This document shows, piece by piece, positions 6,532 through 60,015 of a DNA stretch of 64,000 nt. Position numbers and translations under genes: made by a program. The notes under the pieces are model-generated. The model saw only the letters and a list, made by a program, of their open reading frames with translations, did no database searches and was not told the origin of the DNA. This DNA comes from Gnetum montanum (lineage: Eukaryota; Plantae; Gnetophyta): assembly GCA_015680685.1 (NCBI GenBank), contig MNCI01002192.1, positions 189,237 through 253,236 of the forward strand, read 5' to 3'. The first letter of the stretch is position 1; each line of letters starts with the position of its first letter.

Positions 6532-8345
6532 TGAAACACCCTAAAATTTCAAGGCACTCTTGCTTCACCAAGGTCTTGGAAATGATGCAAACATTTCGAC
6601 AAGTGTAGCCTCATGATATTTTGGTAGGAAATGAATGCATTGACTTTAGATTGTTTAGTTCAACAAGTTTTCTACCTCTAGACCTAATAGGCCTGATGGA
6701 CTCTCTGGCCTACCCACCTGGATGTTTCACCCAGCTAATAGTCTATTCAAAGACCATGTTTGGAGTTGTCGGTGGTGCTCAAGATGCGCAAAGTAGTTTG
6801 GCAAGTTTTCTAGTGAAGAAGCTTGCTACGATACACGATGCTATCTAGTGTAGCAAGCCTCAAAAGATAGCTGCTCATGCAATCAAGTGCAAACTATTGC
6901 AGAACAAGATGCTATGCTATGCAGCGTAGCAAAGGAAAATTAGAAAGGGACTAACTTACCAAGTGATTCCAATGAAGAAATTTCACTCAACAAGCACTTC
7001 AGCCTTCAAAACCAATTACCTTGTTCGACTTCAAGTTCTTCAACAAGGTCTCTTACTATAAAATGGCAGATTGAGAAAAAAGCAGGATATGTTGGCTGCT
7101 ACGCTACATAGCATAGCACATTGTAGCAATAATACAAGAGCAATAAGAAATGTTTCAAATGCAAGTTCAGCAAGTTTAGAGGCTCTCCTTCATGAAAGGA
7201 AAATTTTGTAGCTATTAGCATGGTTAAAGCTTCAAACAGGTGTTTGCAACTTTAGCATGAGTCATAGATAAAGCCAACTACTACGCTATGCTATGCTACA
7301 TAGTGTAGTGTAGCATAGTAGAGATGAAAACTAAATGAAGTGCTTCAAAAGTTAACCTGATGTATGCCAAAGCTTTCAACAAATGCAATTGACCTCAATG
7401 AAAATTTTCTTTTCAAACTGATGGCTACACTATGCTATGCTACATAGCGTAGCACAGCATAGCACAATGTAGCAAGTAGCTATGCTATGCCAACGTGCTA
7501 CGCTACACAGCATAGCACAACATAGCAAAAAGCTACGCTACGTCAGTATGCTTCATCTCTTGCTTGCATTGTTTACACACTTAATGCCAGCACTCCCATT
7601 TTCGACAACATGATTGCAGCATTGTAGGTTCACAATCGGCTTTGCATATCCATGTAATATGGGCACGTCAGCATCTCATGAGTCTAGGACACATGGCATC
7701 TAAATCACATCTCTTGCCTGTTTCTAGCCCTATAAATACCTCGATGGGAAACACTCAAAGGGTTGGCAAATTTGGTTGGTAGGTTGGCAAAAATTTGGTT
7801 GGAAAATTGAGAATCCTATTGGGAAGTTGGAAAATTGGCAATTTATTAGGTTAGCAAGTTTTAGTAGTTGGCATTGTTTGCATTAGCACTTGGCATTAGC
7901 TTTTTTCTTATTGGCATTTTGCATTATTAGCTTTTAAGATTGTATTAAAAAAAATGTACTTGAGGTATTTAGGGCGTTCCGGTCACTCCTGGACTCTTTG
8001 TGCACCTTTGACATTGTATAACTTGTTATACATTTTCAAGCAAAGAAGAGAATCGAATTTCTTATCCCATTTACTCTGTGATTTCTTCATTGTCATCATT
8101 GTTCAACATCACTTTCTTTATCATTGCATTTATTGATCATTGATTAGATCTCACGTATTTCGCACTTAGAACAACGTTTATGAAAGGTTAAGTTACACCA
8201 GTTAAGTCCCTGTTTGATCGACCATACCGTTTAGGGTGCCCAGTTTCCTTTTTATCCAGCACGACCCTCGTATGGATCTGGGTTTAAAACTATTCGCCCA
8301 ATGACCTCTTGGTGTTTCCAGCCACCAACATTTTCAATCACTACA
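6532..8345 (+). repeat. 3' LTR of element A
   Basis: Starts TGAAACACCCTAAAATTTCAAG after the PPT and ends ACATTTTCAATCACTACA. Both ends match the LTR at 62319-63618. TATAAATA at 7731. Confidence 0.8.
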
Positions 8346-9126
8346 ATAACTTCTTCTACTCATCACGAAGCCTTAGTAAAGGTGTTGATTTCAATTCCTA
8401 GTATTAAAAACATCCATGCCAATGAAAAGTCCATCCATGATACTAGTTTCACCTGGGGAGGAAATGAAGTCAAATGTACTATTGTTTTGTGATAGTGAAG
8501 TTAAAAGTAATCCCCAAGATAGTGAGATAATAAGGGTCCCTCTCTTCATAACTACAAGGGTTGGGCAATACTAGGTAGACAGGGTGCACATTGATGATGG
8601 ACTAGCCACTAATGTTATACCTTTTACCATTATTGAAGGGTTAGGCCTAGCGAAGCACATTCAAAATAATTCTACCTTTGTTTTTAAATTCTTTAATAGA
8701 TCATGGATGGTAGTAAAGGGTTTGATTTCACTAGACTTTGTAGTAGGGGAATAATTCCCTACATCAGCCAACTTCTAAGTGGTGGAAGAAATACTAGGAT
8801 TTAACCTCATCGTGGGGAGGTCTTGGCTAACTGATTTATGAGTAGTTTCCTTTCCCATTCACCAAGAAATTCACTTATATTATGAGGGAGGTGAAATATT
8901 TATTTAGGATGATAATGTAGTTCCCTTGGTAGTCAATAACATGAACATGGAGAAAGTGTTTGAAGTGGAGTTTCAAGAAGAAACACCTACTATCAAGAGT
9001 AAAGTCAAGAGGCTTGAAGGAGTAGATCAAGCCAAAACCAAAGATAACCAAGCTATTGATGCACAATGGAAAGGGCTCCCATTCAACATGGTCAATGAGA
9101 AAAATGGAAAATACAAGATTATATAA
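8346..9126 (+). pseudogene. gag C-terminus / aspartic protease remnant (Ogre/Tat type)
   Basis: Manual translation gives SSTHHEALVKVL...PLFITTRV..VDRVHIDDGLATNVIP...FNLIVGRSWL..VVSFPIHQEI, matching the Ogre/Tat RVLIDNGS..N / YNLLLGRPWIH..AVPS.LHQ pattern. Confidence 0.8.
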
Positions 9127-10274
9127 TAAAGATCGTATGCTTTCCTAATATTTTAAAGATTAGGAAATAGTTGCATGATTGAGTATGTCCCCTAATCACT
9201 TGACCCTATGTTAATGAATGTGTGATCTTTTCTTCTTACTTTTATTTTGTAGCCTAGTTTTAAACTCTTGTTTACATGTATCATTTTTCTTTATCATGCT
9301 TTACATTGTTTTAACCTTATTTTGCATGAAATTCATAACTTATCATTATCCATGATTTATCTTTTATGCTTTCTTTTAGAAAAATGTAAACATACCATAA
9401 ACATTTTAAAACTTAAAAAATAAAAAAAATTTAAAACATAAAAAACTTATACAAATTTTACCATGGTCAACCAAGGCCTTAAACTAGTTGTCTACTAAGG
9501 TCTTAAATTGGCAATGCATTTATAACCTTTTTATTCCTCATTATTATTACAACCGTTATACAATAGTTTGCATTTTATTCTACCTTATTACTATACCATT
9601 TTACATTTTATAATTTTTTGTCTTATAGTCTTATAATTTACCAATGTAGCCTTATCACATTAATAATACATAAAATACTTAAGAAATATATAGTAGTGAA
9701 AATGCTAAAACATATAGGCAAAATTAAAAATAATTATAACCAAAGTCTCCAAGATTAACAGCCATAGTCATAGAGTGTGACATAAAAATTTGGTTAAAAA
9801 TGATAATAAAAATAAATAAATGTCTAAAAACCACCATGGTTGCACTATGTAATAATAAAAATAATAATAATGAAAAATTGCTTCATACTCTCTAATGGCT
9901 ATGAATAGCTATTAATAAAAAAAAAACATCAACATCAGGACCAAGATAGCCAAAACATAACAAGATAAGTAGGCCTAAGGAAAAATTGGAGGACAGGGAG
10001 AAGCATCATCATCATCATGGCCACTAGGGTTGGTTCCATTAGCTAGTGCCTACACCACAATAAAAATCAAAACAAAACATAAAATAAAAATTTAATTAGT
10101 AACCTATGTAGCCAAAACATGAAAACAAAATGACAAATGAAAGAGAACACAAGATACAAAATAAACTAAAATATATTAAAATTGAAATATACACAAACAA
10201 ACCTATGGAGGTTTTAATGTAAGGTCTTCTAAAAGAAAGTTTAGGAGACTAGTCTATAAATGATGAAGAATTTG

Positions 10275-12195
10275 TTCTTCATTCATGATCACATAGTCTA
10301 CTTCTCTAAGGTTCACAAAAATTGGGATATTCCTCTACTTGATATTAGTCCATGGTAAGGGCTCTTGTGAAAGGGTAGTAGTAGTTGCCTCCCCTGAAGT
10401 AGTAGTAATCTAGGAAGCTAAGGAATTAGACAACACTAGAGAGATTCTAAATAACTTAAAGGCCTTCTCTATGTTGATTTCTTGCTTGAACATCTTCAAA
10501 TTTTGGCTCTTTATAGCCTCCTCTTACAACCACTTGTAATAACTCTCCCTTTCTACCTTCTATTTGTGCTTGTGGTTTTTCCATGTCTTGCCCCACTCAA
10601 GGACCCAAGCAAAGTAGTCACATTAGTCTCTAATATTACGAACTAACAAGTCCACCTAGATATCATTTTTTGCATTTCTCCTAGGTAGAGAAACCTTGCC
10701 ATGGATGGGATTTTAGTAGTGTGGTCATTCTATATTCTTAGTGCACAAGGAGTATCTATAGGCTACATAAGCCTCTACAAACTTCTTATGGTTTCTAAGG
10801 TCTCTAATCTCCTCTCCCTACTACTTGGTTTCTTTCTCCAATGCTACAACTGTTTCTCATAGGAATTTCTTTGAATGTTTGTATTCCCACGAAATCTTGC
10901 CACATGAGAGGGCACATTCAATGGCACTCTTCTATAACCTTTGTGGAACATTTTCTACATCAAGCAGTAGTGTAAGAAACTTATCAAACTTAATGTTATG
11001 TTTAGGGTCCCATCCAACCTTAGACACTATAAACAACATAACAAAAATTTACATATAAAGACAATAAGTAAACAACAAAAATAATAAAAAATACTTTAAA
11101 CAACTAAGACCATGTAACCATAAAACGTAAAAAGACATTATATATATATATATATATATATACAAAAAAATATATAAAGAATAAAGTAATTTAGGTAAAG
11201 CATGCTATTGTTCTTAGCAACATCGAGAGCAATATGTTGCAATTGATCAATCATGTCTTCAACTGTACCATGCATAAACTCAATCTTATTAGGAACTTTA
11301 GCCCATTGTTTCATATAAAATGTGGAGTTGGATGCCTCTAGAAGGGGTTCAAACACTACAACAAGTATAACCATCACCTAAAAGTTAAAATCAAATTTAA
11401 CATGAAACTACATGATACAACACATAAACTAAAATGGATAAATACCTAGAGGACCATGCAGGATGTCAATGTGAGTTTCATCATCAAATGTTGAATCTTC
11501 AAATATGGCATCCAAGGCATTCAATGCTGCATTAGATATTAGTTCATCATCCTCTTGTTGCCTTAGTGCTTTCTCTTCTTGGTGTTTTTTCTATGCCTCG
11601 ATGGCTACTTGGGTTGCCAGCTCTTGTTGTTTTCCTATAAGAATGACAAAGACAAAACATAGAACAAGTTAGCAATTTTGCCTATAAAATTAATATGATC
11701 ACATAAATGTGCACATAACATAAATAATATGAAAGAGACCATAAAAACCAAGCACAAGAAAAAATTCAATTAGAACATACCTAAAAAATGTGATGTGCTT
11801 AGTTGATCCTAAGGGATATCTTCTTTTTCACTAGCTGCTCAATAATAGTGACCATCTCTTCAACTAGTGGTTAATTCAACTTTTCTTTGGTTGCACCATT
11901 AGCCTCAACACACAACTCCTTAGCTCTCTTAACACTTCCACAAGAAATATGGAGCTCAATCCCTATGTTGTTAGGGAAAGAACAATGTACACCACTCAAT
12001 TTCTTAGTGGTAATAGACAATGATTCTCCAATATCTTCAACTAGTGGGTTTTGAACCTACATGTCTAAAATAATATGTTTCACCCAATGTTTGGAAAATT
12101 AGAATGGATCATGGAATATCCATTTTCCATCCTTATTGACCACTGGGAATTCTAAGAACCTCCTTAAATATGCTACAAAAAATGAAAAATATAAG
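10275..12195 (+). repeat. 1.92-kb direct repeat, left copy (flank of the PLE chain)
   Basis: Collinear with 26244-28162 from TTCTTCATTCATG to AAAATAYAAG. Confidence 0.92.
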
Positions 12196-13380
12196 AGGGT
12201 TCCATTTCCTATTGCGAACATCATGGAGTTGATGAAGCCATTCAAGAAGATGCTATCTAGAGAAAGCAAGAACAAGGTTGAAGCAATGATCTAAGAAGTG
12301 AAAAGGATATCTTTGAGCACAAAGTCATCAAAAAAGCTATTGTCGAATCTGCTAAAGATCATCGAGGCAAGATTCTCTTATGAGGTATCACTTGATCTCA
12401 ACAACAATGAAGGATTTCTTTTGATGGCAAGGATGCCAAGAGGAGAAAGGGATGTATTGATAAGCATTTAAGGATTTTTGATAACACTAAGTAGAAAGAA
12501 TACAAGTGTTAACAAAGTTAGAACCCTTAAAGAAGGAAACATCCAAAATGTTTGCTAAGGAGCTAGATACTGAGGGAGTAATATTGATGGTAGGATAGAA
12601 AGAACCATACTAATTAAGTAACTAGAAGAGGGAATCCTATGAACTACTCAAAATGCCAAAGGCATCATCAATGTACCTTTTGAATTAGAGAAGATGCTTG
12701 GATCCTAGTGTAGAGAAAATTTGTTTCTCTAAGTGATAAAGAAATAGGCAAGCGTAGACAATGGCAAAGTTGCTACCCATGGTGGTGCCTTGAATCTATT
12801 TGTAGAAGACCCCGTTGAACTTCAAAAAATATTCTTGAAGGACCAAAGAGGCCAACTCCATGATAGCATTAATGTAGAAGACCTACAAATTAAAATCACT
12901 ATCCTGAAAATATGACTCAACCATAGCTTGAAGAGTAGCAAGGCCATGATCCGTGGGAATGCTAGGGTAGAGAGATTCTACATCAAAAGTGAAAAGAAAC
13001 ACATTTTGACGTAGGAATCTTGAGTGAAGGTCATGTATCAAGGTTCATGAGTCTGAAAGGTGGTATGGTTGAGAACAAAGGATGGGGAAAAGCAAGTAGT
13101 GGAGCAGGCAAAAGGTAGGTTCAAGCAAATAGTCTGAATACGAGTAGATAGGATGACTAATGAGAACAGGTTTATGGAGTTTAGGGATTAGGTAAAAAGT
13201 ACAAGGTTTGAAAGCAAAGACTTTGAAAAGGGGTCTCTTAAAATTAGAAAAAACTTGTGTAAAATGGTTGATCATAGAGAGAAGCTGATGACAAAGGAGT
13301 TCCCATGGAATGACGTCCACTTGTTGGTAGACATCAGTATTTGACAATTGTCTAATGACCTCTTGATAGTACCAAGTGGA
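12196..13380 (-). pseudogene. PLE RT fragment (5'- and 3'-truncated)
   Basis: ORF 13045-13401 KPCTFYLIPKLHKP; continues through YIDD to the thumb region. Confidence 0.88.
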
Positions 13381-24396: not shown

Positions 24397-26140
24397 CCCA
24401 CAAATAGCTGAATAAGAAGAACTCCACCTCCAATGCCTTTGGGCCATCTAGCTCAGAATCACACCAAGGTTTCCATCATTAGCAATGCAACCCTACACCA
24501 TAGACTTCTTCTCGAAGAAATTTCAAAAGCCACCCTCCTACACATAGTTGAACTTTTGGATCCCAGCCATTACCTATAATTCTTATGCTTGTATTCTCTT
24601 TGAGCGTAAGTTAGTTTGTGAAGTAGAAAATCACATTTCTAACTTCACCATTCAAAATTTTTCATCTAGGAGTCTTTTTCTTGATGAAATCAAAGTTCTT
24701 GATTTTGGCCTCAAATTCATTTCTCATCCTCTTCCCATGGATCATGGTGTGGTTCTTAGGGATTTCACTACCTTTGCTAGAATTCTTCGATTACACAACT
24801 TATTTAAAGACAAACTAGAAGAGGTAAACCTTTCTTCTTCACCTTTTTTGAAAGTAATTCATCTTGCTAAGATAGAGCTACATTTTTGAAGCAAGTGGAA
24901 TTTCCCTGCCAGTAGCTTCAACCAACACCTGGAGACATCTATTCTTGATTATCTCTCGTCTTTGGAGGATACTCTTTCTTCTTCAGATTTTACTTGCAGG
25001 CCTATGCTTCCTCGATGTCTTCTTGGAGCCCTTTTTAAACTCTAGAAATATTGAAGCATTGTTATTCATCTTGCTGATAAAAATATGGGTTTCTGTGTCT
25101 TGGACTCTTCTTGGTACTATCCATAGGCCATTAGATAATTGTCAAATACTGATGTGTACCAACAAGTGAGCATCGTTACATGGGAATTCCTTCATCATCA
25201 GCTTCTCTCTATGATCAACTATTTTTCATAGGTTTTCTCTAATTTTAAGGGATCCATTTTGAAAGTACCTTGTGCTTTCTACCTGATCCCTAAACTTCAT
25301 AAACCTATTCTCGTTGGTCATCATATTTGCTCCTATTTAGGCTATTTACATGAACCACCCTCCCACCTACTCCACTACCTACTTTATCCCATACTTTGTT
25401 CTCAACCATATCATCTTTCAGACTTGTTAGCCTTGATCTATGACCTCCACTCCAAAGTCCTACCTCAAAATGTGTTTTTTTTTTTACTTTTGATGTAGAA
25501 TCTCTCTACCATAGCATTCCCATGGATTATGGCCTTGCTACTTTTTGAGCTATGGTTAAGTCATATTTTTAGGGTAACCCTTTTAATTTGCAGATCTTCT
25601 ACATCAATTCCATCATGGAGCTAGCCTCTCTAGTCCTTCAAGAACATTTCTTGGAGTTCAATGGGGTCTTCTGCAAATAGATTTGAGGCATCACCATAGG
25701 TAGCAACTTTGTCATTGTCTACGCTTGCCTATTTCTATGTCACTTAGAGAAACAAATTTTCTCTACCCTAAGCCCTAAGCATCTTCTCTACTTCAAAAGG
25801 TATATTGATGATTCCTTTGGTATTTGGAGGGATTCACAAGATTCCCTCTTCTAGTTACTTTATCGGTATGGTTCTTTCTATCCTACCATCAATATTATTC
25901 CCTCAATATCATAGCTCTTCAACAAACATTTTTGATGTTTCCTTCAGTATCTAACTTTGTTAACACTAGTATTCTTTCTACTAAGTGTTATAAAAAATCC
26001 TTGAATACTTATGAATACATCCCTTTCTCCTCTTGGCATCCTCACCATCAAAAGAAAGCCTTCATTGTTTCTAAGCTCAAATCATACATCATCATAGAAT
26101 CCTACCTTAGTGATCTTCAGTAGATTCAACAATAGTTATT
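24350..26140 (+). pseudogene. PLE RT ORF2, 3'-truncated and disrupted
   Basis: ORFs 24548-24889, 25259-25498 and 25824-26123 carry PLE RT motifs. Confidence 0.88.
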
Positions 26141-26144
26141 TTGA

Positions 26145-26248
26145 GTACCCAAAAACTTAAAATTTTAAGTACCAAAAATTTTAAATTTTCTAAAAATTTG
26201 AAGTACCCAAAAATTAAAATTTTAAGTACCAAAAATTTTAAGTTTCTT
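26145..26248 (+). repeat. Reiterated AAAATTTTAAGT(ACC/TTC) junction filler
   Basis: About five imperfect copies of a motif also present in the PLE UTRs (13865-13895, 16866-16882, 23029-23046). Confidence 0.75.
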
Positions 26249-28162
26249 CATTCATGTTCACCTAGTCTACTTCCTTAAGGTTGAAAACAATTGGGATATT
26301 CCTCTACTTGATATTAGTCCATGCTAAAGGCTCTTGTGAAAGGGTAGTAGTAGTTGCCTCTGTTGAAGTAGTAGTAATCTAAGGAGCTAAGAAATCAAAC
26401 ACCACTACAGAGATTTTAAATAGCTTAAAGGCCTTCTTTGTGTTGATTTCTTGCATGAACATCTTCAACTTTTGGCTCTTTATATCATCCTCTTGTAACC
26501 ACTTATAATAACTCTCATTTTATACCTTCTATTTGTGCTTGTGTTTTTTTTCATGTATTGCCCCCCTTAAGGACCCAAGCATAGTAGTCTTCTTAGTCTT
26601 TGATCTTACGAACTAACAAGTCCATCTAGATATCATTTTTTGCATTTCTCCTAGGTAGATCAACCTTGCTATGGATGGGATTCTTGTAGTGTGGTCATTC
26701 TATCTTCTTAGTTCACAAGGAGTCTCTATTGTCTACACAAGCCTCTACAAACTTCTTATGGTTTCTAAGGTCTCTAATCTCCTCTGCCTACTACTTGGTT
26801 TCTTTCTCCAATGCTACAACTCTCTCTCATAGGAATTTCTTTGAATGTTGGTATTCCCATGAAGTCTTGCCACATGAGAGGGCACATTCAATGGAACACT
26901 TGTATAACCTTTGTGGAACATTTTCTACTTCAAGCGGTAGTGCAAGCAAGTTATCAAGATCAATGTTATGTTCAGGGTCCCATCCAACCTTAGACATTGT
27001 AAGCAACATAACAAAATTTACATATAAAGACAATAAGTAAACAACAGAAATAATAAAAAATACTTTAAGCAACTAAGATCATGTAACCATAAAACATTAA
27101 AAGCCATAAAATATATATATAACAAAATATATAAAAATATATAAAGAATAAAGTAATTTAGGCAAAGCATTCTATTGTTCTTACCAACATCAAGAGTAAT
27201 ATGTTGCAACTGATCAATCATATCTTCAACCATACCATGCATAAAGTCAATCTTATTAGGAACCTCATCCCATGGTTTCATACAAAATATGGAGTTGGAT
27301 GCCTCTAGAAAGGGTTCAAACACTACAACAAGTATAACCATAAACTAAAAATTAAAATCAAATTTAACATGAAACTACATGATACAACACATAAACTAAA
27401 ATGCATAAATACCTGGAGGACCATGCAGGATGTCAATGTGAGTTTCATCATCAAATTTTGAATCTTCAAATATGGTATCCAAGGCATTCAATGCTTCAGT
27501 AGGTATTAGTTCATCATCCTCTTGTTGCCTTAGTGCATTCTCTTCTTGGTGTTTTCTCTATGCCTCTACAGCTACTTGGGTTGCCAGTTCTTGTTGTTTT
27601 CCTATAAGAATGACAAAGAAAAAATATAGAAAAAATTAGCAATTTTGCCTATATAATTAACATGATGACATAAATGTGCACATAACATAAAGAATATGCA
27701 AGATACCATAAAAACCAAGCATAAGAAAATATTGAATTAGAACATACCTAAAAAATTTGACGTGCTTAGTTGATCCTAAGGGATATCTTCTTTTTCACTA
27801 GCTACTCAACAACAATAACCATCTCTTCAATTAGTGGTTGCTTCCACTTTGCTTTGGTTGAACCATTAGCCTCAACACACAACTCCTTAGCTCTCTTAAC
27901 ACTTCCACAAGAAATATGGAGCTCAATTCCCATGTTGTTAGGAAAAGAACAATGTACACCACTCAATTTCTTAGTGGTAATAGATAATGATTCCTCAATA
28001 TCTTCGACTGGTGGGTTTTGAACCTACATGTCTAGAATAATATGTTTCACCCAAGGTTTGGAAAATTAGGATGGATCATGGAATATCCATTTTCCATCCT
28101 TCTTGACCACTGGGAATTCTAAGAACCTCCTTAGATATGCTACTAGAAATGCAAAATACAAG
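26244..28162 (+). repeat. 1.92-kb direct repeat, right copy
   Basis: Collinear with 10275-12195; continues into the uninterrupted exon at 28163. Confidence 0.92.
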
Positions 28163-31100
28163 TGGCATATTGTCTCAAGGTTGTTTCAGAATTTTGGATC
28201 TCATCCTATAGCCCAGAGACCTATTGAGTAGCCTAGTTAACCTTAGCACCTTCGATGAGGACCTTCTTCATGGTCCAAGCTTGTTGAATGCTAAGGATCT
28301 TCTTTTGCAATATCAACATGGGTAACGACCTAGAGCAAAACAATGGATACATCTCATTAACTTTTATTATGTAGCACTAGTCTAGAGGCAACCCATTGCT
28401 ACCACGATGAATGCTAAGCCATTCTTTGATCTCCTCTCTATGATCTATCCCTTTCCCTACCTTTATGGAAACCTTCATGTCATCAAAAGGTATGCCAAAT
28501 AAGACATTAAACATGGATTAATTGATTACCAAGATGACATGCACACTATTAACATGAGAGATGAATTTCTTAACTCCTTTTTCAAAAGAGTTAATGACAT
28601 TTACCATCTCTACAATAGGCATGGATGGGCTAGGAATCATAATTAGATTGAGCAAACCTGCATTGACAATCTTTTCCTAGATCTCTCTAGGTGCTCTACC
28701 AGTTGATCACTCTTGTGCTAAATCTACTTTGCCCCACTTAAGAATTAGTGTCTCCTTTTCACCTCCCAAGGTGATTATGGAAATAGTAGATTTAGGCATA
28801 AGATCTAAAATAGAACATGAACAACCAATTATCCTTTAGAATAAGCACACCACACAAGTAAAGTATATATATAACAAACATAGTAAAAAATCAAAATTAA
28901 ATTTTTAACCACATAGTTAAAACCCATTAAAAAATTAAGGCCTAAACAACTAAAAAACAAATAGAGAACATTAACATTAATAATCAAAAAATTAAAAAAA
29001 ATAAAAACTATTAAATTTTCTTATCTAGTTTCAGTAATGTAGGGGGTCCTAAAAGCCACAAGTGCATGTATGCCTAAGTCAGAAAGGCCCCACTAAATAG
29101 GAACAATCCTATTCACCAAACACTTGTGGTAGACTTTATAGTAACATGAAGTGTATATTCTGAAGTCATCCCTTAGTTGCTACAACACCATGAGTCTCAC
29201 ATGGGACCCTTGTGTAAAAACCTCCAATGATGTGTGTGCCAAGGGTAGAACTTGGTCACTCTTGATTAATTCTTCATTGTGCACTTTATACCTACACCAT
29301 AAAAATTCAACAAAAAAGTCTTAGGATAAAATAGTCTAATGAAAATAACAAGTGAAAAAAAAACATAGAATGGCACTTATGCTTGTAACTAGTATATAGT
29401 GCCAGAAGGATTTTGAAATAAAGTGTGGACTTGATGGCCTATCATTAATTTGTTGTTCACATTATACAAAATAAACTCAGGCATATCCCAAATTTGGGAT
29501 AACTTGTGTGTTCCTAGTGTGCACATATCATCGTGATGGTCACATTCCATACAAGTGGTAGGGCAATCTACCATGAACTTGACAATGAGACTAGTAGGAT
29601 GGGGTAGCAAAGTCTTTTCAATAACAACTACAGTGTCAAAGGCCAAGTGTAATCGTAAGATTATACTAAAGTTCTTCAATAGGAATGCTAAGAACTCTTT
29701 AGCCCTAGGCCTAAACCAAGGAGAACTATGATCCAAGACCATGTTAGGTAGCAAACTATTTGGTCCTAGGATATTTATGTAGCATAGAATCCCAACCATT
29801 TCAATTACCATTAGGATGGATTTCAAAAAGGCTCTACATAACCAAACAAAACCATTAAAACATAAAAGATTAGTAAACAAAAATTAACAAAAAATAAACA
29901 AAAAATGATGAATATAATTTCAATTTTCAAATATTAAATTCAAAATAAATTAAAGGCAAAATAATAAAATACAAAACTTCAAACTATCAATATTTTCACT
30001 TAAAAACTATGTAGAATATCAACACAAAACATTTATGAAAATCACATAGTTAAATAATGCATTAGAAATTTTTACATTAAGCATTAAAATATGAGAAAAA
30101 TACTATAATAAGTTTAAAACCATGATTAAAAATGTGTTAATGGTTGTGAAAATTTCAACTTAAGTTTGAAAAAATGTTGACTAGAAATCCTAGTTTATAG
30201 TGAAAAAACTATAGGAAAGTTGGATAAAAATTTCAAGAAGATTAGATAGATATTGAGAACCAAAATAAGCCATGTAAATGACCATTAGAGATCTTAAAAT
30301 ATCCAATAAAACATAATAAGTATAACAACACTACTAGTGCAAGCTGGGAAGCTTGCATGCTCAGCAAGTAAAACTACAACTGTATAGGGTAGTTCATGTG
30401 AACAATAATTTGAAAACAAAATTACCAAAAATTATTTTTCTAAGTTTAGGAAATGTAAACATACATAATTTAAGAAAACTTCTATACCAAAATTCCAATA
30501 ATGGGCATAGAAAAATTCACATTGTCGCTTGGAATCACTTTGAATTTTTTTCAAAAAATCTGGTTTGTAGTGAAACCTCTAGGAAAATTATGAGAAACTT
30601 TTCAAAAATTCTAAAACCTATTTAGAACCCTACTACACTATCCCATAAACCCTCAAAAGACTAGGATGTTCATAGAAAAATAGCCAAAGTATGCCAATGC
30701 TACTAGTCTTCGAAGGCCAAAAATAGCATTGTGCTTTGGTCTATGGAAAAAATCATAAGAAATTAACTGTAGCTCCAAAAATAGTGATTCAACCATTGAT
30801 GAGACCATTAAACACCATAGAATAACCTTATGGCATGAAAAACTAGAACTTTTATATCTAACCCTAATAAAATATTGTAAAGTTTAAACATTCTTTGGTA
30901 ACAAATTGTCAAAAACACATAGGATGGGCCAAAAAAATTCATAATTTTATAAAAAGAGTCCCTAAGGTTAAAATCACAACATGAGTTCATCAAAATAACC
31001 TAGATGCTACATTTAACACATATAAAACCAAATTTTCCCAAACACAAACCTAGGCATTACAAAATGCCTTCATACTACAGTAAAAATTGGTTGAAAATAG

Positions 31101-31859
31101 TTAATGAAGGGTACTTGGCAATCATGTTGGAAGAGCTTTTCTAATGGATGGTAATGGGAGGTGGGTGATTCCTCTACTAGTAGCCTTTTCCTCCTCTGGT
31201 GCTAAGTTCCTTTTGATTCCTCCTCTCCTCTTTAACATCTTGCAAGGATGAGATGAAATCTTTAGTTTCTTTATAACTACGCTACCTTGGTGATGGGAAA
31301 TAGAAAAAAATACATTGACTATGGATAGAAATATGGTAAAAAATGGCTGAAAATATTGTTTAACAACCTCTACTCCAAGAAAAAATCTAGAAAAAATAGT
31401 TTTCATAAAAATTCCAATGATGAAGCCCTCCATATACGTATGCATTAGTACGATAACCTTCACATCCAAAATGCCTACACAACATCGAGTGAACTCAATG
31501 GTCACATATGAAAAGTGATAAATATGCTAGGTTTACTTGGTTTTGAGTTTCAAATAATCTTTTAACCTTGGGTAGGCCCCATAGGGTTCCTCCTAAATAA
31601 ACCACAAAAAATCCCAATACAATGGGATTTATAATTTTAAACAAAAAATACACTAGGGATTAATGCCCAAGTAAACATTGAAAACTTGGAATGGATTCCA
31701 AGATCTATCCATGGTGAAGGTACATCTTCTAGCTATCCATGATTGATCCATTGTGGTTAATAAATTCCCATCTCAAACTAGAAATCCTAGACATTACCAT
31801 AAGAGGACTCTAGTTTCTAATAATGGTCAAAAAAACCCCTAAAACAAAGAATTCCAAGC

Positions 31860-33242
31860 ATAAATACATTGCCTACAAGAAAAGATACATTGGCTAGTGT
31901 ATTTTTACAAAGAATGGTGATGACTTGCACTAACCAAACCTCCAAGTAACCTCCAAATTACTGAGCCAAATCCCAAACCCTAACTAGAGCCTCCAACAAC
32001 TCCAAAACCCTAGAGACCCTATTAAAAGTTGTTAAAATCCACATATCCTTCAAAAGTACATTGGTATGAGCATTAAATACATTGACTAGTGTATTTTTGG
32101 AAGATGAGACATAAAATCCATCCATAATACCTTCAATAGTCTTCAATATTGCTAACCCTAGCCTTGACACCTACCTAGAGCCTCTAGTAAACTCAAAACT
32201 CTAAATGACAAGCCAAAAATAGGATAAAATTGGTCAAACCATGAAAGATATAATGGGATGAGATTAAATACAGTGGCTAGCAAATAAATTATAGGAACAA
32301 CTAAGAAAAATCCATGAACCAATTGAAATAGCCTTCAAATACCTCACACCAGTCACAGAATCCATCTAGAGCATCCAATAGTCATCAAACTTTGAAAACT
32401 AAGTCAAGAAGTGGTTAACAGTAGTAACATCCTCCAGAGATACATAGGCATCAACACTAAATATGTTGGCTAGTGTATTTTGTAGAGAAGTGACCAAACA
32501 GAGTCTCCAACAACCTCCTAGATCATTGATTTTAAGCCTAAACCCTAGTCGCAGATACTAGTGATCCCATAAGTTACAAAACCAAGTTTATTAATTATCC
32601 AAACTACCTAGAAGACATAATTTAATGGAAATATATTGACATCAACACTAAATACATTGGCCAATATATTTTTTGTTTTAATGGTAGTTTTGATAGCCTT
32701 ATGAAATTCTAGATTACCTAAAATTTAACTAGAGAAGCCTAGAACCACAAAACCTAAAACTAGTTGCAACTTGACCTTATTTTTAGCATGAAAAGTTTAA
32801 ATTTCATTATTTATATGTTGGGGTAATGGAAAACTATGCTGACTTGCATATTTTTGAATTGGAGTGCTCGAAACTACACTTTCATTGATCTATTACGACT
32901 TCTAAATGATCATTCTACAACCTTGAGACCCCTTCACTATCCAAGAAGATTGCTAAAGCTAAAATTTCAAGTCTAAAGAATCATGGAATAATTTTTTCTA
33001 AGAAAATACATTGGCATCAATATTAAATACACTAGCCAATGTATTTTCTAGCTCTTGGCAGCATGTAAGGCCTTTAGGAGGTCAAATCAACACCAAAATT
33101 AACTAATCCTTCCTCATAGTCCATTGCACTAACATTTTAGGATATTAGAACCTAGAAACTATTCTAGAAGAATCATAGAAATTAAATGTCACTAAAATAT
33201 ATGATGGGGCCTGCAATAAATACGTTGGCTAGTGTATTTATT
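31860..33242. repeat. ~192-bp-period array of palindromes AAATACRYTGGCYARYGTATTT (8 units)
   Basis: Palindrome centres at 31892, 32084, 32275, 32468, 32659, 32841, 33034 and 33227. Confidence 0.8.
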
Positions 33243-33884
33243 ATAAGTGATAGCACATTTATTCAAAATGCTTTATTTTTATCTTCAAATTGGCTCAAAA
33301 TGATCTCCCTGAGTGCCCAAGCATTTTTATTAATCTTGGTGCCTCCCACCATGGTCCGCTAAGGCATAAAATTGGAAAAATGTGACCTTGATTGACCAAT
33401 ATTCACAATGTTTTACCACATGTTACCTACCTTTATTGGTTTGGCCTTATTCCACTATGTTTTAGCTTGATCTAACCTTGTTTCACATTATTGTCTATCA
33501 TTTCCATATCATTTGGTGTCATCTGATCTCATTTTCATCATTTCTATAACATTTGGCTCTATCCCACCATAATTTTCTATCATTTGACATTATTTTAACT
33601 TAGTTGACTTGATTTGACATCAACTAATGTCATACTTTAATTAGACCTTATTCAAACTTTCTTGACATCATTTTATGGGGTTTGACCATCATTTGGCCTT
33701 TGTTTCAAATTATTTGATTTAACCTACCCCTTATAGCCTTTGTTGACCATGTTTGAACCTTTTTTAACCCTTTATATATTGTGTTTTGACAAATATAGGC
33801 ATTATTACACAATTTTTTACATTGACACCATTTAATAATTTTATCACATAGGTGTTACTCAATGTGCTTATGGAAGATTAGATT

Positions 33885-36800
33885 ATGGATACTTGGATGT
33901 AGTTTAGTTTACCTCTAATCTTGAGTAAACCTCATATTGATGTTGATTGATTCATTGACCTTAATTACTTAGATCTTGAACTTGAAAGCCTAGGCGATTA
34001 TATAGCCTCTATAGAAAAGCCTCTTGAATGGCCTAAACATTTACTTAAAACCCTTAACCTTAAGGCTCGCAATATTACTGAAGACTCTCTAGCTAATATT
34101 TTAGTTATAATGCATACTTGGTATGAGAAATACCATTGAAACTAAGTTTCTTAGTTGAACCCTAGTAGGCCCAATAGGTCACCAAGGTCCTTTAAGACAA
34201 CATTAAGATCTTTGCCTAGTCATATGAAGATATGCCAGGTGTTGATCCATGCCTAGTGCAACACAATATTATACTTGATCCTAGTATTAAGCCAATTAAA
34301 TAACAGGTTTACAAAATTAGAGAAGATCTAGCCCTGGTAGTTTGTGATGAGATCATAAAACTCTATTAAGTAGGTTTCATTCTAGCTATTGATTACATGG
34401 ATTGGGTGTTCAACATAGTGGTAGTCCCTAAGACAAATGGGAGTATATGTACTCGCATCAACTTTCAAGAACTAAATAAGGTAGCTATTAAATACAATTT
34501 TCCTTTTACTAGTATTGACCAACTCATCAATACTATGGCTATATATGCCTTGTTATCCTTCATGGATGGGTTCTTGAGATATAACTAAGTTAGGATTAAC
34601 CTAGACCATCAACTTTATATGACTTTCATGACCCCTTAGAAAAAATTTTGTTATACCATGATGCCCTTTGATCTAAAAAATGCAAGCATGACCTATCAAT
34701 GAGCGATGACATACATATTTAGTGACTAAATGCTAAGGTTACTTAATGTTTACATAGATGACATAGTGGTTAAATCTAAGTGGCTAATAATCATGCACAT
34801 GATGTATACTTGGTGCTTAAATGATTCCTGAAATATGAACTTAGGCTTAATCCTAAGAAGTGTGTTTTTGGCATTAAAACTAGTAAGATGCATGGTGTTG
34901 TAGTGTTCAAAGTAGGAACACATGTCGATCTTGATAAGATTAATGTCATTACTCACTTGATAGTACATACTAATCTTAAGGAGCTTTGGGAACTACAAGG
35001 TAGATTGAAATTTATTCATACGTTCATCTCAAGGCTTATGGATAAGCTACAACAAATGAAACACTTGCTTAAGAAAGGAGTTCACTATAAGTGAATTTCC
35101 CAATGCCAATAAGTCATCAATAAAATTAAGCAAGAGTTGGCGATAATAGTTGAGTTTGACCTACACTACATCTCCCAAGCGTTAACCAAAGGTCAAGCTA
35201 TAGCTTCATAAATCACAACTTTCTCTGTTGAAGACAACGCAACCATAGGCTTTGAATTCCTTGATGAGCATATCAACATTATTATTGAGGTACTTGAGGA
35301 TTACAAGGCCATCAAGCACTTTTACGGGGCCTCAAATACTCATGGGGCTAATGTTGCTACCATCTTAACATCATATTTTGATGTAATCCAACCCTTCACT
35401 TACCATTTTCAATTTTCAAGTATCAACAATGTGGCAAAGTATGAAGAATTAATCAAAGGAATAATGGTAGCCTATGACCAACGAATCAAATGCCTATGAT
35501 AAGAGTTGATTTACAACTTTTGGTTAACCAAGTAACTAAGGTTTATGCATGTAAAGCCAACCATTTATAATGCTACTATGACCTAGCTAATAAACTAATG
35601 CAACAATTTATAGATGTTAGTATCCAACATATACCATGAATCGAGAACACCTTAGTTGATGCCATTGTAACTTTGGCCCTAAGTGTGATGCTAGATGTGT
35701 TTAGCAAGTTACCTTTGTTAACCATGAACTGTACTACTTCCATCACATAGAACACTAAAGACATCTCTATAGCCATTGTTAATACTATTCCTCAAAAAGA
35801 ATGCTATGATGATATTACGTTTTATCTAATTCATGGTGAATAACTACTTCTCAAAAGGACATTGTGCATAAAATATTAAAGTAATATATCATTGTAGGAA
35901 ATAATACACTATGTCAAAGGTCTTATGATGATATATTATTAGTATGCTTGGGCAAAACTAAAGCCCACACACTTCTTGAATAACTTCATGAAGGAGTATG
36001 TGGAGTACATATAAGACCTAGAATCATGGCTATAAAAATTAGAAGATTAGGATGCTATTGACCCTATATGGAAAGTGACTACCTATAGAAAGTTAAGACT
36101 TATGATACCTATCAACAACATAGCAATCTAATACATGTGCCACAAACTAAGTTACATACTACTCAGGTAACTTGGTCATTTCAATGATGGGGACCTAACA
36201 TTATTGGACCTATAATGCCTAAGTATTCTGTAAAGCATAGTTTTATGATCACTAATACTGAATATTTTACAAAGTGGGTTCAAGCTATTCATCTAAGGAA
36301 AACAACTCCTAAACAAGTCTATAGATTCATACTAGATAGCATAGTAGCTTGTTTTGACATACCTCTAACCATAATCATAGATAATGGACCACAATTTAGT
36401 AGCCAAGAAATGCAAACCTTTTGTAAAGAACTAAGCATTAAGAATTTTTTTTGTCATCATATTATCCTCAAGCCAATGGAAAAGATGAAGCTGGTAACTA
36501 GGTAATCATAAACTTACTTAAAGATGCTAAATAATAATAGATGTAAGTGGCATGAGTGGCTTATCCATGCACTTTAGTCCTATAGGACTACCTTTCAAAC
36601 TACACCTGGTGTCACCCTATATAGCCTTATTTACAAATCCCAAGTTGTTTTACCTCTTGAATTGTAGGTTCCATTGCTAAGAGTGGCTTTATTTGACTTC
36701 ATCAACAATCAGTAGAACAAGGATTTGTGTGCAATCAACCTAGATTCGATGGAAGAGTAGTGAATAAAAATACTTTTTAAAATCGAATGATACTAATAGA

Positions 36801-37027
36801 GGCAAAAGCAACAAAATTTTCATAATCTAAATAAGCAAAAGATCAATAAAGGATACCTAGTCCTCAATACTATTCACAAGCATGTAAACAAGTTCTTAAC
36901 CAATTAGAAGGGGCCTTTCTTGGTTACAAAAGCCTATGGTAATAGAGGATTCAAATTGGCAGATAGGGATGGGAATGAATTGGCCAATTTGGTTAACCAT
37001 TCCTATCTTAATTATTATTACATCTAA
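33885..37027 (+). pseudogene. pol: pol (RT, RH largely deleted, aRH, INT) of element B
   Basis: LLSFMDGF, YIDDIVV, EYFTKWVQAI and DNGPQF motifs; collinear with the pol regions of A and D. Confidence 0.9.
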
Positions 37028-38128
37028 TGTGATCTTCTTTATAGGTGTGAATGAACAATTAACATTGATAACCTTTACAACTAAATAGCAAGCAAGCCTA
37101 CATACTATCTCTCTCTTTCTCAATCTCTCTCTATGTTTGGCACAATGAATGAGTTGTAAGCTTTATAAAATTTGATGCACATCACATACATTTCTCAATG
37201 TTGCACTAGTGGTAACCTATGGTAGTCTATGGTTTTGGTAGTTGTCCCATGTAGCCTTATGTAATATTTTATAACAACATGTCTTCTTTATCTTGTTTCC
37301 TTGGAATTGTGCTTATAGGATAAAGTCTGGAATTCATCATGAAGGTGTAACTCATCATGACAGCAAGCCATCACATGACCTTGATGCATAAGATGTGGTT
37401 AGCTTCTCCTATTGTATCAATAGTGCTTATCTTATGTCACTTCCATTACCCTTATTAAGCCATAATCCCATATCCTAATTACAGCTTCATTATCCTAAGC
37501 AACAATGATGATCTATGTTTGACATGCATGCATAATGACCATGTAACATCCCTTTCATCTCATCATGCTACATCTTCAAGCTCATTGGGTGTAACACATT
37601 TCTTTTAATGAGAAAACCAAACTAAGTTTTGCCTTCACACTAAAACCCAATGAAGGTTTCACCAAATAAAAACTGGAGAAATAAATTGCCAAAGAATTCA
37701 TTAGGCCAATGAAGCTTAAAAGGCATATCAATAGCTCCAAACTAGCAAAGGAAGTCTAATGATCAAAGAATCCTTGGATCAGACTACTAATTTTTCAAGA
37801 ACATTACCAAGTAACCAACACTTTAAAGCACAAAGCATAAAGACTACACCAATTAACAAGCATGTCACTACCACACCATCACCATGATGTCAACATGTGG
37901 AATCCATTGTTAATCCCTATGACCATTCCCTTGTAACTAACTATAGCTTTTATCCTATATCATTCCATCATAACCCTATCTCATCATCAAAAGTACTCTT
38001 TGACATGGTTCGATAGCTACAGAATCAAATGTAGAGAGAAATGTTGGTGATAAACCTATGGTGATGTTTTGCATTCTTTATTGATGTCTCTTAGGTTAAT
38101 CCTCAAAACATCAACAAAGAGGAATAAA

Positions 38129-39360
38129 TGTAATACCATGAAGAAAATTCATGTTATAATCCATATCCAAAAACATTATAATTTGGTGTAAAATAATGGA
38201 AGATATAATTGCCTTATTTCTCCCAACACTTGGCATTGTAACCTTCACCATTGAACTTGAGGCAAGATCTTATTATAAAATGTGAAGGTTTTTAGTTCAC
38301 AAGCTACAATCTTATATAATTTAACTTATGGAGGCTAGAAAAGACTTCATAGGTTGTGATTGTCTCACTTTCTAACTAGAAAAAGTTATGTCATACATGT
38401 ATCTAGAGTTGGGAAGGTTGAAAATGCCTTAGGAGTCACCAAATTTGGGTTTTTTATGGGCTTTATGCTAGTCATAGCAATCTATGTGCTAAGATCACCT
38501 ACAACCAATGTATAAATTAATGGGCTTTAGTCTTCATGATGAGGCCAATGTATTTCTATGGAAGCTAGTGTATCTTGGTGAAGCTACCATACTTTTTGGG
38601 GAACCCAGGATATCTTTGATGGCCTTCATGCATCAAACTTACCAAAATGAAGAAATATGCTAGGTGTGAATGGCTTGCAAAATTAGAAATTTGTAGCAAT
38701 ATATCAGTAATCATGGAAAAAATTTACACTAATGAATCAAACTCCAATGACCTATGTAAATAAATCTTGACCATACTCAAAGGACATTTTGTAGAATTTA
38801 CATTTACCTTATCAAAGAGACTCTTAGAGTAGTGCGATTACTTGGAAGTCCAATAACTATTCATCTACCAATGAAGCAGATCTAGTAGCAAAGAACAAAA
38901 AAAAGAGATCTTTAGGAGTGAAACTTTAAAGCATCTAGATCATGAAACTAATTGTAGGACATACACTACTAGTTTCAATCAAGATTCAAGCATCTTCTAT
39001 GTAGCTCTTTGTGCATCATAGGCACATAAACTTGTACTCATTTGAACTTTTTCTTACAAAATTTTATTATTTTAATAAAATATGGAAGTTCATTTATGCA
39101 TTTCTAGTTTATTTTTGTTGGTATTGGATCTACAATTTTTATGAAAATCTATTTGCATATATTTTACAAATTCTAAGTTCTTGGGTGATTAAAAAGATTG
39201 TCCAAGGTGCTTCAAATCCATTTTTTTGAGGCCTATGAGATCTAAGGTTCAACTATTTCATCACAATTCTTTGGTTTTCTAGTGCTAAATTTTTCTAGTA
39301 TTATAAACATGATTCTTTTCCTTGAAATTATATTCCCCAAAATAATACCATCTTAGACCA
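38129..39360 (+). repeat. 3' LTR of element B (right end approximate)
   Basis: TGTAATACC follows the decayed hairpin/PPT; similar to the inverted LTR of D. Confidence 0.6.
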
Positions 39361-39969
39361 TTAAGTGGCTTTTTTATGAGCTGAGATGTAGCTTTGTTTC
39401 TACACATTGATTTAGTACCTTCTTCAAAGAGTCCAGTTGGTTGCAACTATAAAATTAGGTCCCTCAAAAATTAAAAATCCTAGGCTATAAAAGACTATCC
39501 TTGAATCCCAAGCACCTTCAAAAAAATAGGATTCAAGGTACGCTAGATGTTGTTATCGATCACCCAGGGATTTACAAAGTTTAAATGGAAATAAAAATAG
39601 GAATAGAATTACAGATTCAAACAAAAATAAAATTAACACTAAAATTAAACTTCAAACCAAATATGCACTACAAATGAACATAAAACTTTATTGAATAAAA
39701 GTGTAAATCTCAAAGAGTACAGATGGGTGCTCAAAGCATAAGTTAGCTTTAATGGAATTTGAAGCCTATTGAAGTTAGTAGGTTATGTTCTATAGTTAGT
39801 CTCCAACACTAGGGTTTGTGGTGACAACACTAGGTGTTATTGTTGCAAAGTAAAAATCAAATACTATCTATACCAGGGGTAGATGGATTTAGTGTAGCTG
39901 AGGCTATACCTCTACAAAAACCCATGAAAATGCCAAATTTGGCAGTCCTTAAAAAACTTCTATCCTTTC

Positions 39970-57819: not shown

Positions 57820-60015
57820 GTGACTATGCTAGGCTCTATTAGTGACTACATTGGCCAGCATAGTTAGACTAGGCCGTAGCATAATTGACATCAATAGGTG
57901 GTTTCCCAAGTTCATCATGACCAATTTTGGATTTTAGATGGTTAGTATGGGCAAAACTGTAGATTGAGATTGAAGATGGATGGATTTTGGACTCCATTTT
58001 CACCCCCTTGGATGTTGGAAATGGGGTTAACATTGGTGACTACATTGGAACTACACTAGCTAGCATAGTCTAGGCCACCTCAAATGTAGTTGCATGAGAA
58101 AAATATGTTTAGGAGGCTTTAGAGTTGCTACTGGTGTTTTGTCATATTCCTAGGGTAATGTAGGACTTTGAAAGATCTGAATGGGCTTCTTGGAGGCTAA
58201 AACAAGATTTTGAAAGTGAGATCTTGTATCAACACCTCATGATGTTGGTCATCATAATTAAGGGTTGTCTCAACGTAGGCAAACCAAAATCTAGATTTTC
58301 CATGATTTAGAAAATTCAATTGCAAGTGGCTTCATGGTTTTAGGGCCTAAACTTCTAGCATTAAGTTTTAATCTATTTTTTTTGCTACTGTAATGATCAA
58401 GACATCTTGAAGCATGGAGTACACTGGGACAATGATGGCTAATGTAGTCATAGGGTTTCCTTAGCATAGTCACATGAAAGCTAGTCTTCCCATGATCAAA
58501 ACAATGCAAAATCATCACTAGGCTATGTCAATTAGGGTTTTAGGTGTCTTAAATTACATTCTTGGCCATTTGAGATGTTAACACACTAATTTCAAGAATT
58601 CCCAGCCATGAATACATTGGGACTATGTTGGCCAACATAGTCATGGCTTGTTCCAATGTAGTCATGTTCAAAATATAGATTTTGGCATGTTTCTATGGTA
58701 AATTGACTAGTTTCATGGGTTCCTAGCATTTTTGGTACTTCTGGTCAGGGTTCTAACTCAATATGGATGATTCCCGAGGTTATTGAGGCTTTGAAATGAC
58801 CATTTCCTACTATGACTATGCTAGCCAACATCGTTGAGCCTAGCGTTAGCATAGTTGGAATGGATCTAGTTTTTTCAAGGTCAGAACAAGATGAATTTGC
58901 AATTTGGTGAGGCTATACAAGGTTTTGGGTTTCCAATCTATGTTTTGGATTGTTTTCAGTGTCAAATCACTAGTCAAATCAACCTTAGATCATGGCCACA
59001 CTAGGACTACATTAGCTAGCATAGTCTAGGCTTGCTCCAACATAGTCACAACATGGATTTTAAATTTTGGTGCAATTCTATGATCTATTGATTGAATTTT
59101 TGAGTTCTAATGTCATTAATATTAGAAATTAGGGTTTCATGCTTGAAATTATCAATTTTGATGGTTAATTTAATTTCATAATGATCAAACACCATTGGAC
59201 TACACTAGCCAACATATTCACAATTGGTTATGTGGAATGTATGATGACTTTTGGCTATTTTTGATTGAGATTATAGTGTTTATAGGTCTCTAGGATATTC
59301 AACAAGGTTTTGGGATTGGTCTGGTGTTTCCAGAAGTTGTTTTGACAAGTTTGAATCCCATTTTGGTGTTTTGGAAGTGTGACTATGCTAGGACTACATT
59401 GGCCAACATAATCACAAGCCTCCTGAATGTAGTCACATAATGAAAATGAAATTTGGCTTATTTATAATTCATAGTTTGTCAATGCAAGGTTACCAAATGT
59501 CCTAGAGAAGTTTGGAGATCAAAATATGGTAATTCAGAGTCTTTTTATTTATGTTTGTCAATCCACCCTAATCCAACTATGCTAGGACTACATTGGTTAG
59601 CATACTTAGGGTTACGTCCAGTGTAGTTTATAGTGTGAAATGGAATTTTACTAGTTTGGATCATTAGTTTACTATTTCAAGGCTACCAAAGGTTCTACAA
59701 TGAAGCTGATGCAAAAATGTGTTAGTTGGAACTTAATTTTAGGTAATTAATGGTTATTTCTTACTCAACCTCTAGTGACTCTATTAGCCAATGTAGTTGA
59801 GGTCTCCCACAGTGTATTCAATGCAATAAAATTGGGTTTTGATGGTTTTTGATAGGTATCATGCAATCTTGACACTATTGAAGGTCTTGGATAGGGTTTA
59901 GTGCATGGTGTTTCCATTCTAGAGTCAATTTGGATTTTAGTTGATGTTTGGAAACCTCTTCCAATTGGTGACTAAGCTACCTAGTGTATTCAACCTATTG
60001 GTCAGTGTAGTTGCC
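57820..60015. repeat. ~192-bp-period array of palindromes GACTAYRYTRGCYARYRTAGTY (12 units)
   Basis: Centres at 57853, 58058, 58247, 58437, 58630, 58823, 59014, 59207, 59401, 59595, 59786 and 59979. Confidence 0.82.

What the first reader, a model, noticed from the sequence alone, without database searches (positions are those of the whole stretch)
31860..33242. Nucleosome-spaced palindrome array between the divergent pol and antisense-gene starts (element B)
Eight 22-bp palindromes (inferred ancestral AAATACGCTGGCCAGCGTATTT), often preceded by a half-site ~21 bp upstream, recur every 191-193 bp (one gap of 182). The intervening DNA is much more diverged. Conserved site plus conserved spacing suggests binding sites for a dimeric protein, one per nucleosome repeat. 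The adjacent antisense gene product is a candidate, by analogy with VANC anti-silencing proteins that bind arrays in VANDAL transposons.
Basis: partly seen in the sequence, partly recalled or inferred. Interest (0 to 1): 0.75.

Follow-up and report, generated by a model that had tools for sequence, protein, structure and literature searches.

The report
Retrotransposon's nucleosome-phased binding-site array
A decayed plant jumping gene carries eight copies of a short symmetric DNA site spaced about 192 bases apart, with bendable nucleosome-type DNA between them, and these likely served as docking points for a protein, probably one the element itself encoded, that would keep its own promoters active against host silencing.

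Summary
Real, and richer than reported. Eight palindromes (31883-33239) share a core TACGCT-N4-AGCGTA, eroded almost only by C>T/G>A at CG/CHG. A second, diverged element in the window (C) has 12 homologous sites; 16 of 18 intervals are 189-194 bp. Cores are far more conserved than spacers, so the old-satellite refutation fails. New: spacers carry AA/TT periodicity at 10.12 bp (95% 10.04-10.22), in the same phase to the sites in both elements, and about 147 bp fits between site clusters. Flanks are family-specific (B AAA/TTT, C RAC/GTC, A GC/GC) although B and C arrays are collinear, and each family's variant recurs near its own promoters or LTR. Element B is an Ogre-like Ty3/gypsy with a spliced antisense gene lying between protease and RT. 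Best reading: linker-placed sites for a dimeric sequence-specific protein between positioned nucleosomes (about 0.85); binder is the antisense product acting as activator/anti-silencer (about 0.5). Binding, methylation effect and the protein's family are untested or negative (no PMD/VANC similarity found). Works like VANC/VANDAL but is not a member.

The parts
31862..33239 (.). Array B: eight 22-bp palindromes (starts 31883, 32075, 32266, 32459, 32650, 32832, 33025, 33218) with upstream half-sites at -21 and AA-phased spacers
57825..60010 (-). Array C: 12 homologous palindromes (core starts 57847-59973) with RAC/GTC flanks, half-sites at -21 and +21, same AA phase
6911..7520 (+). Five palindromes of the same core in the 3' LTR of element A (6913, 7100, 7292, 7436, 7499; first gaps 187 and 192), GC flanks and a different 4-bp centre
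31308..31656 (+). Three B-type half-sites (31308, 31520, 31646) in the 5' region of the antisense gene; TATA-like TATAAAT on the minus strand at 31633-31627
   Evidence: TATA call by eye
38545..38663 (.). B-type half-sites inside element B's 3' LTR (38545, 38653)
26244..31238 (-). Broken, spliced antisense gene of element B, 5' and middle part (ATG at 31238; several GT-AG, T-rich introns, e.g. 27747-27602, 27412-27305, 27184-26989); family unknown
   Evidence: splice sites read by eye; frame-biased stop density; exon 1 matches element C, tblastx E 3.6e-7
9975..12198 (-). 3' end of the same antisense gene (duplicate of 26244-28165 continuing in frame into unique DNA; stop at 9977-9975)
8350..8950 (+). 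End of gag and aspartic protease, inferred to belong to element B
   Evidence: blastp E 2e-13 to polyproteins of related loci; no Pfam hit; link to B inferred
33260..33860 (+). T-rich (42% T) intron-like stretch ahead of pol
   Evidence: splicing not shown
33870..37027 (+). Broken RT-RH-aRH-INT frame with its own ATG (homologous ATG in C at 57096 and A at 1283); part of RH deleted
38116..39370 (+). Polypurine tract (38116-38128) and 3' LTR of B from 38129; right end approximate

Best explanation
The array is a regulatory region of an Ogre-like Ty3/gypsy retrotransposon in which conserved palindromes likely bind a dimeric sequence-specific protein in the linkers between nucleosomes that the AA-phased spacers are predicted to position, and the binder is probably the element's own antisense-gene product, which would keep the element's promoters active against methylation silencing. 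Shown: the sites, their spacing, fixed half-site geometry (-21, 0, +10, +21: one helical face), 10.1-bp AA/TT phasing, family-specific flanks, the same variants at each family's promoter/LTR regions, and a spliced antisense gene between protease and RT. Inferred: nucleosome occupancy (193 = about 147 bp core + a 43-54 bp site cluster), protein binding, identity of the binder, a bidirectional internal promoter driving the antisense gene leftward and an RT-RH-INT message rightward, and the activating sign of the effect. The copy here is dead: its sites have since been methylated and deaminated.
For: Core versus spacer conservation (transversion distance 0.067 in cores, 0.16-0.25 in the seven spacer pairs tested). 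16 of 18 intervals within 189-194 bp, whereas only 40% of 192-bp windows of the B/C 3' UTR stay within 3 bp; the two outliers are 182 and 205, about one helical turn off. AA/TT power at 9.9-10.3 bp is 3.04 times the mean against 1.08 in 429 control segments, maximum 1.98 in 20,000 random sets; 129 against at most 99 in 1000 run-preserving shuffles, phase concentration R 0.73 over 18 spacers. B and C arrays are collinear (58.5% over 923 bp) yet the base after the core is T in 8 of 8 B sites and G in 11 of 12 C sites: parallel change without spacer homogenisation. 17 of 19 B-type half-sites lie in B's array, antisense 5' region or LTR; 28 of 36 C-type in C's array or antisense 5' region. Precedent: VANC motifs differ between related TE families and pile up in tandem repeats (PMC5735166).
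Against: No binding, MNase or methylation data. The antisense exons match nothing: Pfam, protein databases, PDB sequences (78, 79), a PMD/DUF7745 profile (87); the fold model was unusable (pLDDT 41). Element A has the divergent layout without a 192-bp array and only 1 of 3 of its LTR spacers is clearly periodic. The 10-bp signal extends beyond the array into the pre-pol stretch. The sites hold two CG and two CHG, good substrates for silencing. RNA: only 24 and 17 partly laid reads, all under 95% alike, none from this copy. Only three families from one window were studied.
Confidence: 0.5

Rival explanations
1. Same chromatin architecture, but the binder is a host dimeric transcription factor and the array is a captured enhancer.
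For: The inner TACGCT-N4-AGCGTA is invariant across three families; LTR elements commonly use host factors (established knowledge); no link from the antisense protein to DNA binding was found.
Against: Flanks and centre differ by family and changed in parallel across collinear units, which one host factor does not require; the site forms no array in 658 kb of distant Tat/Ogre loci (5 scattered single matches). I recall no plant factor with this site (recall, not a database test).
Confidence: 0.2
2. The element's own protein binds the sites but acts otherwise: as a repressor, insulator, or tether that limits or localises the element rather than freeing it.
For: All sequence evidence is blind to the sign of the effect; the VANC-related host protein MAIN acts in TE silencing (PMC13547354); regular long-repeat nucleosome arrays are linked with repressed chromatin (PMC11140268).
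Against: Sites cluster at the element's promoter regions and LTR, and a selfish element gains most from activation (inference).
Confidence: 0.14
3. The palindromes work as RNA hairpins (packaging, dimerisation or splicing signals) in the genomic RNA.
For: Four of six tested sites fold better than shuffles (z -2.5 to -5.8); flanks changed on both arms; the GGCC centre would be a self-complementary loop.
Against: Folding is expected of any palindrome; unpaired half-sites at -21 carry the same family flank; constant 192-bp spacing, helical-face offsets and 10.1-bp phasing are duplex-DNA features; element A uses a different centre with the same gap.
Confidence: 0.08
4. An old neutral tandem repeat or satellite inside the element, with motifs kept by conversion or template switching.
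For: Some units are related by duplication (7 of 21 B spacer pairs z>3); Tat/Ogre/Retand elements often carry tandem arrays of unknown function (PMC11963269); 10-bp periodicity can arise from nucleosome-dependent mutation (recalled).
Against: Mean gapped spacer identity 0.57-0.59 against 0.56 for shuffles while CG/CHG-rich cores are kept; the same sites occur outside the array in promoters and LTRs.
Confidence: 0.04

Closest known systems
VANC / VANDAL anti-silencing system (Arabidopsis Mutator-like DNA transposons; PMC5735166, passages seen)
   Same: TE-encoded accessory gene; short motif accumulated in repeats in non-coding regions; motif variants differ between related families
   Different: Here an LTR retrotransposon; 16-22-bp palindrome rich in CG/CHG rather than an 8-9-bp asymmetric motif; fixed nucleosome-length spacing with phased spacers; binding and demethylation not shown; no sequence link to the PMD/MAIN fold reported for VANC (PMC13547354)
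Ogre (Tat IV/V) Ty3/gypsy elements (PMC4408406 section 6 and passages; PMC6317226 passages)
   Same: aRH between RH and INT; protease separated from RT-RH-INT by an intron-like region; extra ORF
   Different: Described extra ORFs lie 5' of gag (sense) or 3' of pol (antisense) and carry PMD-coiled coil; here a multi-intron antisense gene plus array fills the PR-RT gap, and a neighbouring gag-PR-aRH-RT element points to a non-angiosperm host, where this domain order was not described in those papers
Retand elements with antisense TRP28 ORFs and tandem arrays (PMC11963269, first fifth and passages)
   Same: Antisense ORF with proposed DNA-binding regulatory role beside tandem arrays of unknown function
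   Different: Those lie between pol and the 3' LTR and are TRF-detectable family repeats; no TRP28 hit here; no palindromic sites or nucleosome phasing reported in the passages seen
CENP-B boxes in alpha satellite; Spm TnpA subterminal repeats; foamy-virus Tas and internal promoter (all recalled, not tested)
   Same: Sequence-specific binder in linkers of phased repeats; TE protein binding its own repeated sites; self-encoded activator of an internal promoter and LTR with Pol made apart from Gag
   Different: Different element classes and no homology claimed; analogies of logic only

Membership tests
Tat clade, Ogre-like | additional RNase H (aRH) between RH and INT | tested here: met
   RVT_3 before rve in B (E 0.0045, below cut-off); RT, RT_RNaseH, RVT_3 in order in A
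Tat clade, Ogre-like | protease encoded apart from RT-RH-INT | tested here: met
   no protease ahead of RT; protease at 8539-8900; joining it to B is inferred
Tat clade, Ogre-like | extra ORF with PMD/DUF7745 domain | tested here: inconclusive
   profile from 10 seed ORFs (28 after expansion) gave no hit; hhalign probability 0.3% or less, no better than reversed controls; the exons are decayed; a 5' ORF1 would lie outside the window
Tat clade, Ogre-like | PBS type, target-site duplication, 5' LTR | not testable with these tools
   5' end lies outside the window; no genome held
Tat clade, Ogre-like | RT phylogenetic placement | not tested
   only nearest neighbours listed, 41-56% identity, for element A's RT; no tree built
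Retand | antisense TRP28 ORF and arrays between pol and 3' LTR | tested here: not met
   gene and array lie upstream of RT; no Pfam hit in B's 3' region or antisense exons
VANC/VANDAL | Mutator-like DNA transposon host | tested here: not met
   RT, RNase H, integrase, PPT and LTR
VANC/VANDAL | short motif accumulated in repeats in non-coding regions, differing between families | tested here: met
VANC/VANDAL | encoded protein of VANC (PMD/MAIN-like) fold | tested here: inconclusive
   no PDB sequence hit; model pLDDT 41 and no fold match
VANC/VANDAL | protein binds motif and removes methylation in trans | not testable with these tools
   needs bench work
Satellite / ordinary tandem repeat | units alike along their whole length | tested here: not met

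The most novel reading that the evidence does not exclude
A lineage of LTR retrotransposons encodes its own sequence-specific anti-silencing protein in a spliced antisense gene between protease and RT, and writes its own chromatin template in DNA: phased nucleosomes with the protein's palindromic sites held in every linker, site and protein co-evolving family by family. This would be a VANC-like arms race in retrotransposons of a large plant genome, and would give a function to the unexplained extra ORFs and internal arrays of Tat elements.
Probability: 0.35. Interest if true: 0.92.

Novelty: new variant of a known kind. Interest (0 to 1): 0.78.

Why it matters
The function of extra ORFs and internal repeat arrays in Tat/Ogre/Retand elements is stated as unknown in the papers read (PMC11963269, PMC6317226, PMC4408406). 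This locus offers a precise candidate site, three natural variants and a candidate binder, so the question becomes directly testable. It also appears to be a natural, DNA-encoded phased nucleosome array with linker-placed sites. Searches for a prior description listed no paper that, by title and abstract start, describes it; the library lacks most subscription papers and I read no supplements (the element tables of PMC6317226 could hold such elements).

Tried and rejected
No whole genome held, so no copy census. Protein searches for antisense exons: none; the one phmmer hit was a repetitive Symbiodinium protein, spurious. Atlas gave no answer. Single-sequence fold unusable, no PDB match. Two-site DNA pattern at 193-bp spacing: 0 matches in metagenome and viral contigs. 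80 distant RT-related loci carry no such array. PMD/DUF7745 homology, which I expected from recalled motif likeness, was not detected. No RNA holder listed for the stretch. RNA reads laid were too few and too unlike to show starts or splicing; in one run first mates lay on opposite strands on the two sides of the array, but strandedness is unknown. Earlier scan findings: nothing. Two papers not held. My early view that B and C spacers are unalignable was dropped after one search showed a weak collinear match. My early view that B lacks gag and protease was dropped.

Full report
OBSERVATION. A deamination-tolerant scan for the 16-bp core found 15 sites in the window, 7 in this array and 8 in a second one, none elsewhere, and none in 5 Markov simulations. 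A relaxed scan of the two regions gives 8 sites in B and 12 in C.

THE ANCESTRAL SITE. Of 93 deviations from the inferred core in 20 sites, 82 are C>T or G>A; 78 of 160 CG/CHG positions decayed, 4 of 40 other G/C positions, and 6 of 120 A/T positions changed. So the active elements had nearly uniform cores, later eroded. Anchored identity is 0.62-0.74 in cores and mostly 0.25-0.40 in spacers; mean gapped spacer identity is 0.57-0.59 against 0.56 for shuffles, though 7 of 21 B pairs and 8 of 55 C pairs keep a trace of duplication. The old-satellite test therefore does not refute.

A FAMILY-WIDE SITE WITH FAMILY-SPECIFIC FLANKS. Searching TACGCT-Nk-AGCGTA gave 19 hits at k=4 and 0, 0, 0, 0, 0, 0, 1, 1 at the other eight gaps; 6 are in B, 7 in C, 5 in the LTR of a third relative A (first gaps 187 and 192) and 1 is isolated. 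RT DNA identity is 76% for B-C and 68% for A with either. B uses AAA/TTT flanks, C RAC/GTC, A GC/GC with another centre. B and C arrays are collinear homologues (58.5% over 923 bp; diagonal z mostly 4-8, lower than 6-19 for 3' UTR windows), so the flank changed at nearly every unit without the spacers being homogenised; B site 6 keeps a C-type left flank. Extra half-sites sit at -21 (5 of 8 B, 10 of 12 C) and +21 (5 of 12 C). Each variant recurs in its own family's regulatory regions: 17 of 19 B-type half-sites are in B's array, antisense 5' region or LTR; 28 of 36 C-type are in C's array or antisense 5' region; A-type sites crowd A's LTR and antisense 5' region. In 80 distant RT-related loci (658 kb) there are 5 single matches and no array.

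NUCLEOSOME SIGNAL (new). With sites trimmed away, the 18 spacers show AA/TT periodicity peaking at 10.12 bp (bootstrap 10.04-10.22); power ratio 3.04 against 1.08 in 429 control segments, never above 1.98 in 20,000 random sets, and p 0.0002 for B alone; it survives run-preserving shuffles and has one phase relative to the core in B and C. AA peaks run from about +37 to +149. A period near 10.1-10.2 is that of octamer-wrapped DNA rather than the 10.4-10.5 of free DNA (recalled). 16 of 18 intervals are 189-194 bp, while the 3' UTR of the same two elements drifts with SD 8.3 bp per 192 bp. Published plant repeat lengths are 182-200 bp, maize 190.7-193.5 (PMC11140268, passages). Site clusters span 43-54 bp, leaving about one 147-bp core. 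Caveats: the signal also appears in the pre-pol stretch, is clear in only 1 of 3 A-LTR spacers, and may be a result as much as a cause of stable positioning.

THE ELEMENT. Right of the array lie a T-rich stretch and RT-RH-aRH-INT with its own ATG, conserved in A and C, then PPT and LTR. Left lies a minus-strand gene with a TATA-like box, ATG at 31238, GT-AG introns and frame-biased stops (splice sites by eye); its first exon and upstream region match C (tblastx E 3.6e-7; 58-59% DNA). A Penelope-like rearranged block (by-eye motifs; no Pfam support) interrupts it at 10275-26243 with a 1.9-kb duplication; the frame runs on into unique DNA and ends at 9975, facing a protease at about 8540-8900. 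So the inferred order is gag-PR, antisense gene, array, RT-RH-aRH-INT. Ogre elements have an intron at this position (PMC4408406), but the extra ORFs described lie 5' of gag or 3' of pol. Antisense orientation explains how introns survive reverse transcription (established logic). A neighbouring element has gag-PR-aRH-RT order, described for club-mosses and gymnosperms (PMC6317226).

OTHER COPIES AND RNA. 5,596 and 6,099 contigs of two DNA runs laid on 31100-34400 at 80% or more; the array is covered beyond the locus itself, and one related piece aligns over 32760-33006 with 51 differences and no gap. These runs may include the source sample and depth is no copy number. Two RNA runs gave 24 and 17 partial reads, none 95% alike; they show nothing about this copy.

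THE PROTEIN. No family could be assigned. By eye it begins with a short basic motif in B and C, has a Cys/His cluster in exon 2 and charged, possibly coiled-coil late exons. VANC is reported to resemble the PMD protein MAIN and to dimerise through a coiled coil (PMC13547354, passages), and Tat extra ORFs are PMD plus coiled coil, so homology is conceivable, but my direct test was negative on decayed exons.

MECHANISM AND ODDS. Linker-placed sites for a dimeric DNA-binding protein between phased nucleosomes: about 0.85. Binder encoded by the element: about 0.65 overall. Activating or anti-silencing role with that binder: about 0.5. Rivals: host factor 0.2, self-encoded repressor or tether 0.14, RNA hairpins 0.08, neutral repeat 0.04.

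KNOWN AND NOVEL. It works like VANC/VANDAL (PMC5735166, passages) but is not a member. It is Ogre-like by domain order but differs in the place and kind of extra gene. Papers seen: PMC11963269 (first fifth, passages), PMC4408406 (section 6, passages), PMC6317226, PMC5735166, PMC11140268, PMC13547354, PMC12859917, PMC9683059 (passages); no supplements. Searches listed no description of this array. Verdict: real, selected, a new variant of a known kind with a testable and possibly important mechanism; interest 0.78.

Noticed in passing
window 915-1090, 4920-5150, 9475, 57398: A second conserved motif (GACCTTAAACTAGC-like) forms the 54-bp repeats between A's divergent starts and the repeats behind A's integrase, and occurs singly in B and C.
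   Followed up: partly
window 10275-26243: Rearranged block of direct and inverted copies (78-93% alike) with Penelope-like RT motifs read by eye and three 35-bp tandem arrays; it carries duplicates of part of B's antisense gene.
   Followed up: partly
window 41055-52348: Younger Ty3/gypsy (LTRs 95% alike) with gag-PR-aRH-RT order, inserted in element C's 3' LTR.
   Followed up: partly
window 38943-39802: Long imperfect inverted repeat (58%), read as the 3' LTRs of B and C meeting tail to tail.
   Followed up: no
window 62300-63770: A-like LTR inserted in intron 1 of C's antisense gene, with clustered A-type half-sites and a 67-bp tandem repeat.
   Followed up: partly
window 1-900: Element A has a clear minus-strand TATA box at 769-781 and 13 A-type half-sites in its antisense 5' region, some in 5-bp tandem runs, but no 192-bp array.
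   Followed up: partly
window 30400-31000 and 33400-33650: 10-bp AA/TT periodicity continues outside the array, in intron 1 of the antisense gene and in the pre-pol stretch.
   Followed up: no
window 39898-40060: Exact 38-bp duplicate beside an N and a gap, with adapter-like DNA between: likely an assembly artefact.
   Followed up: no
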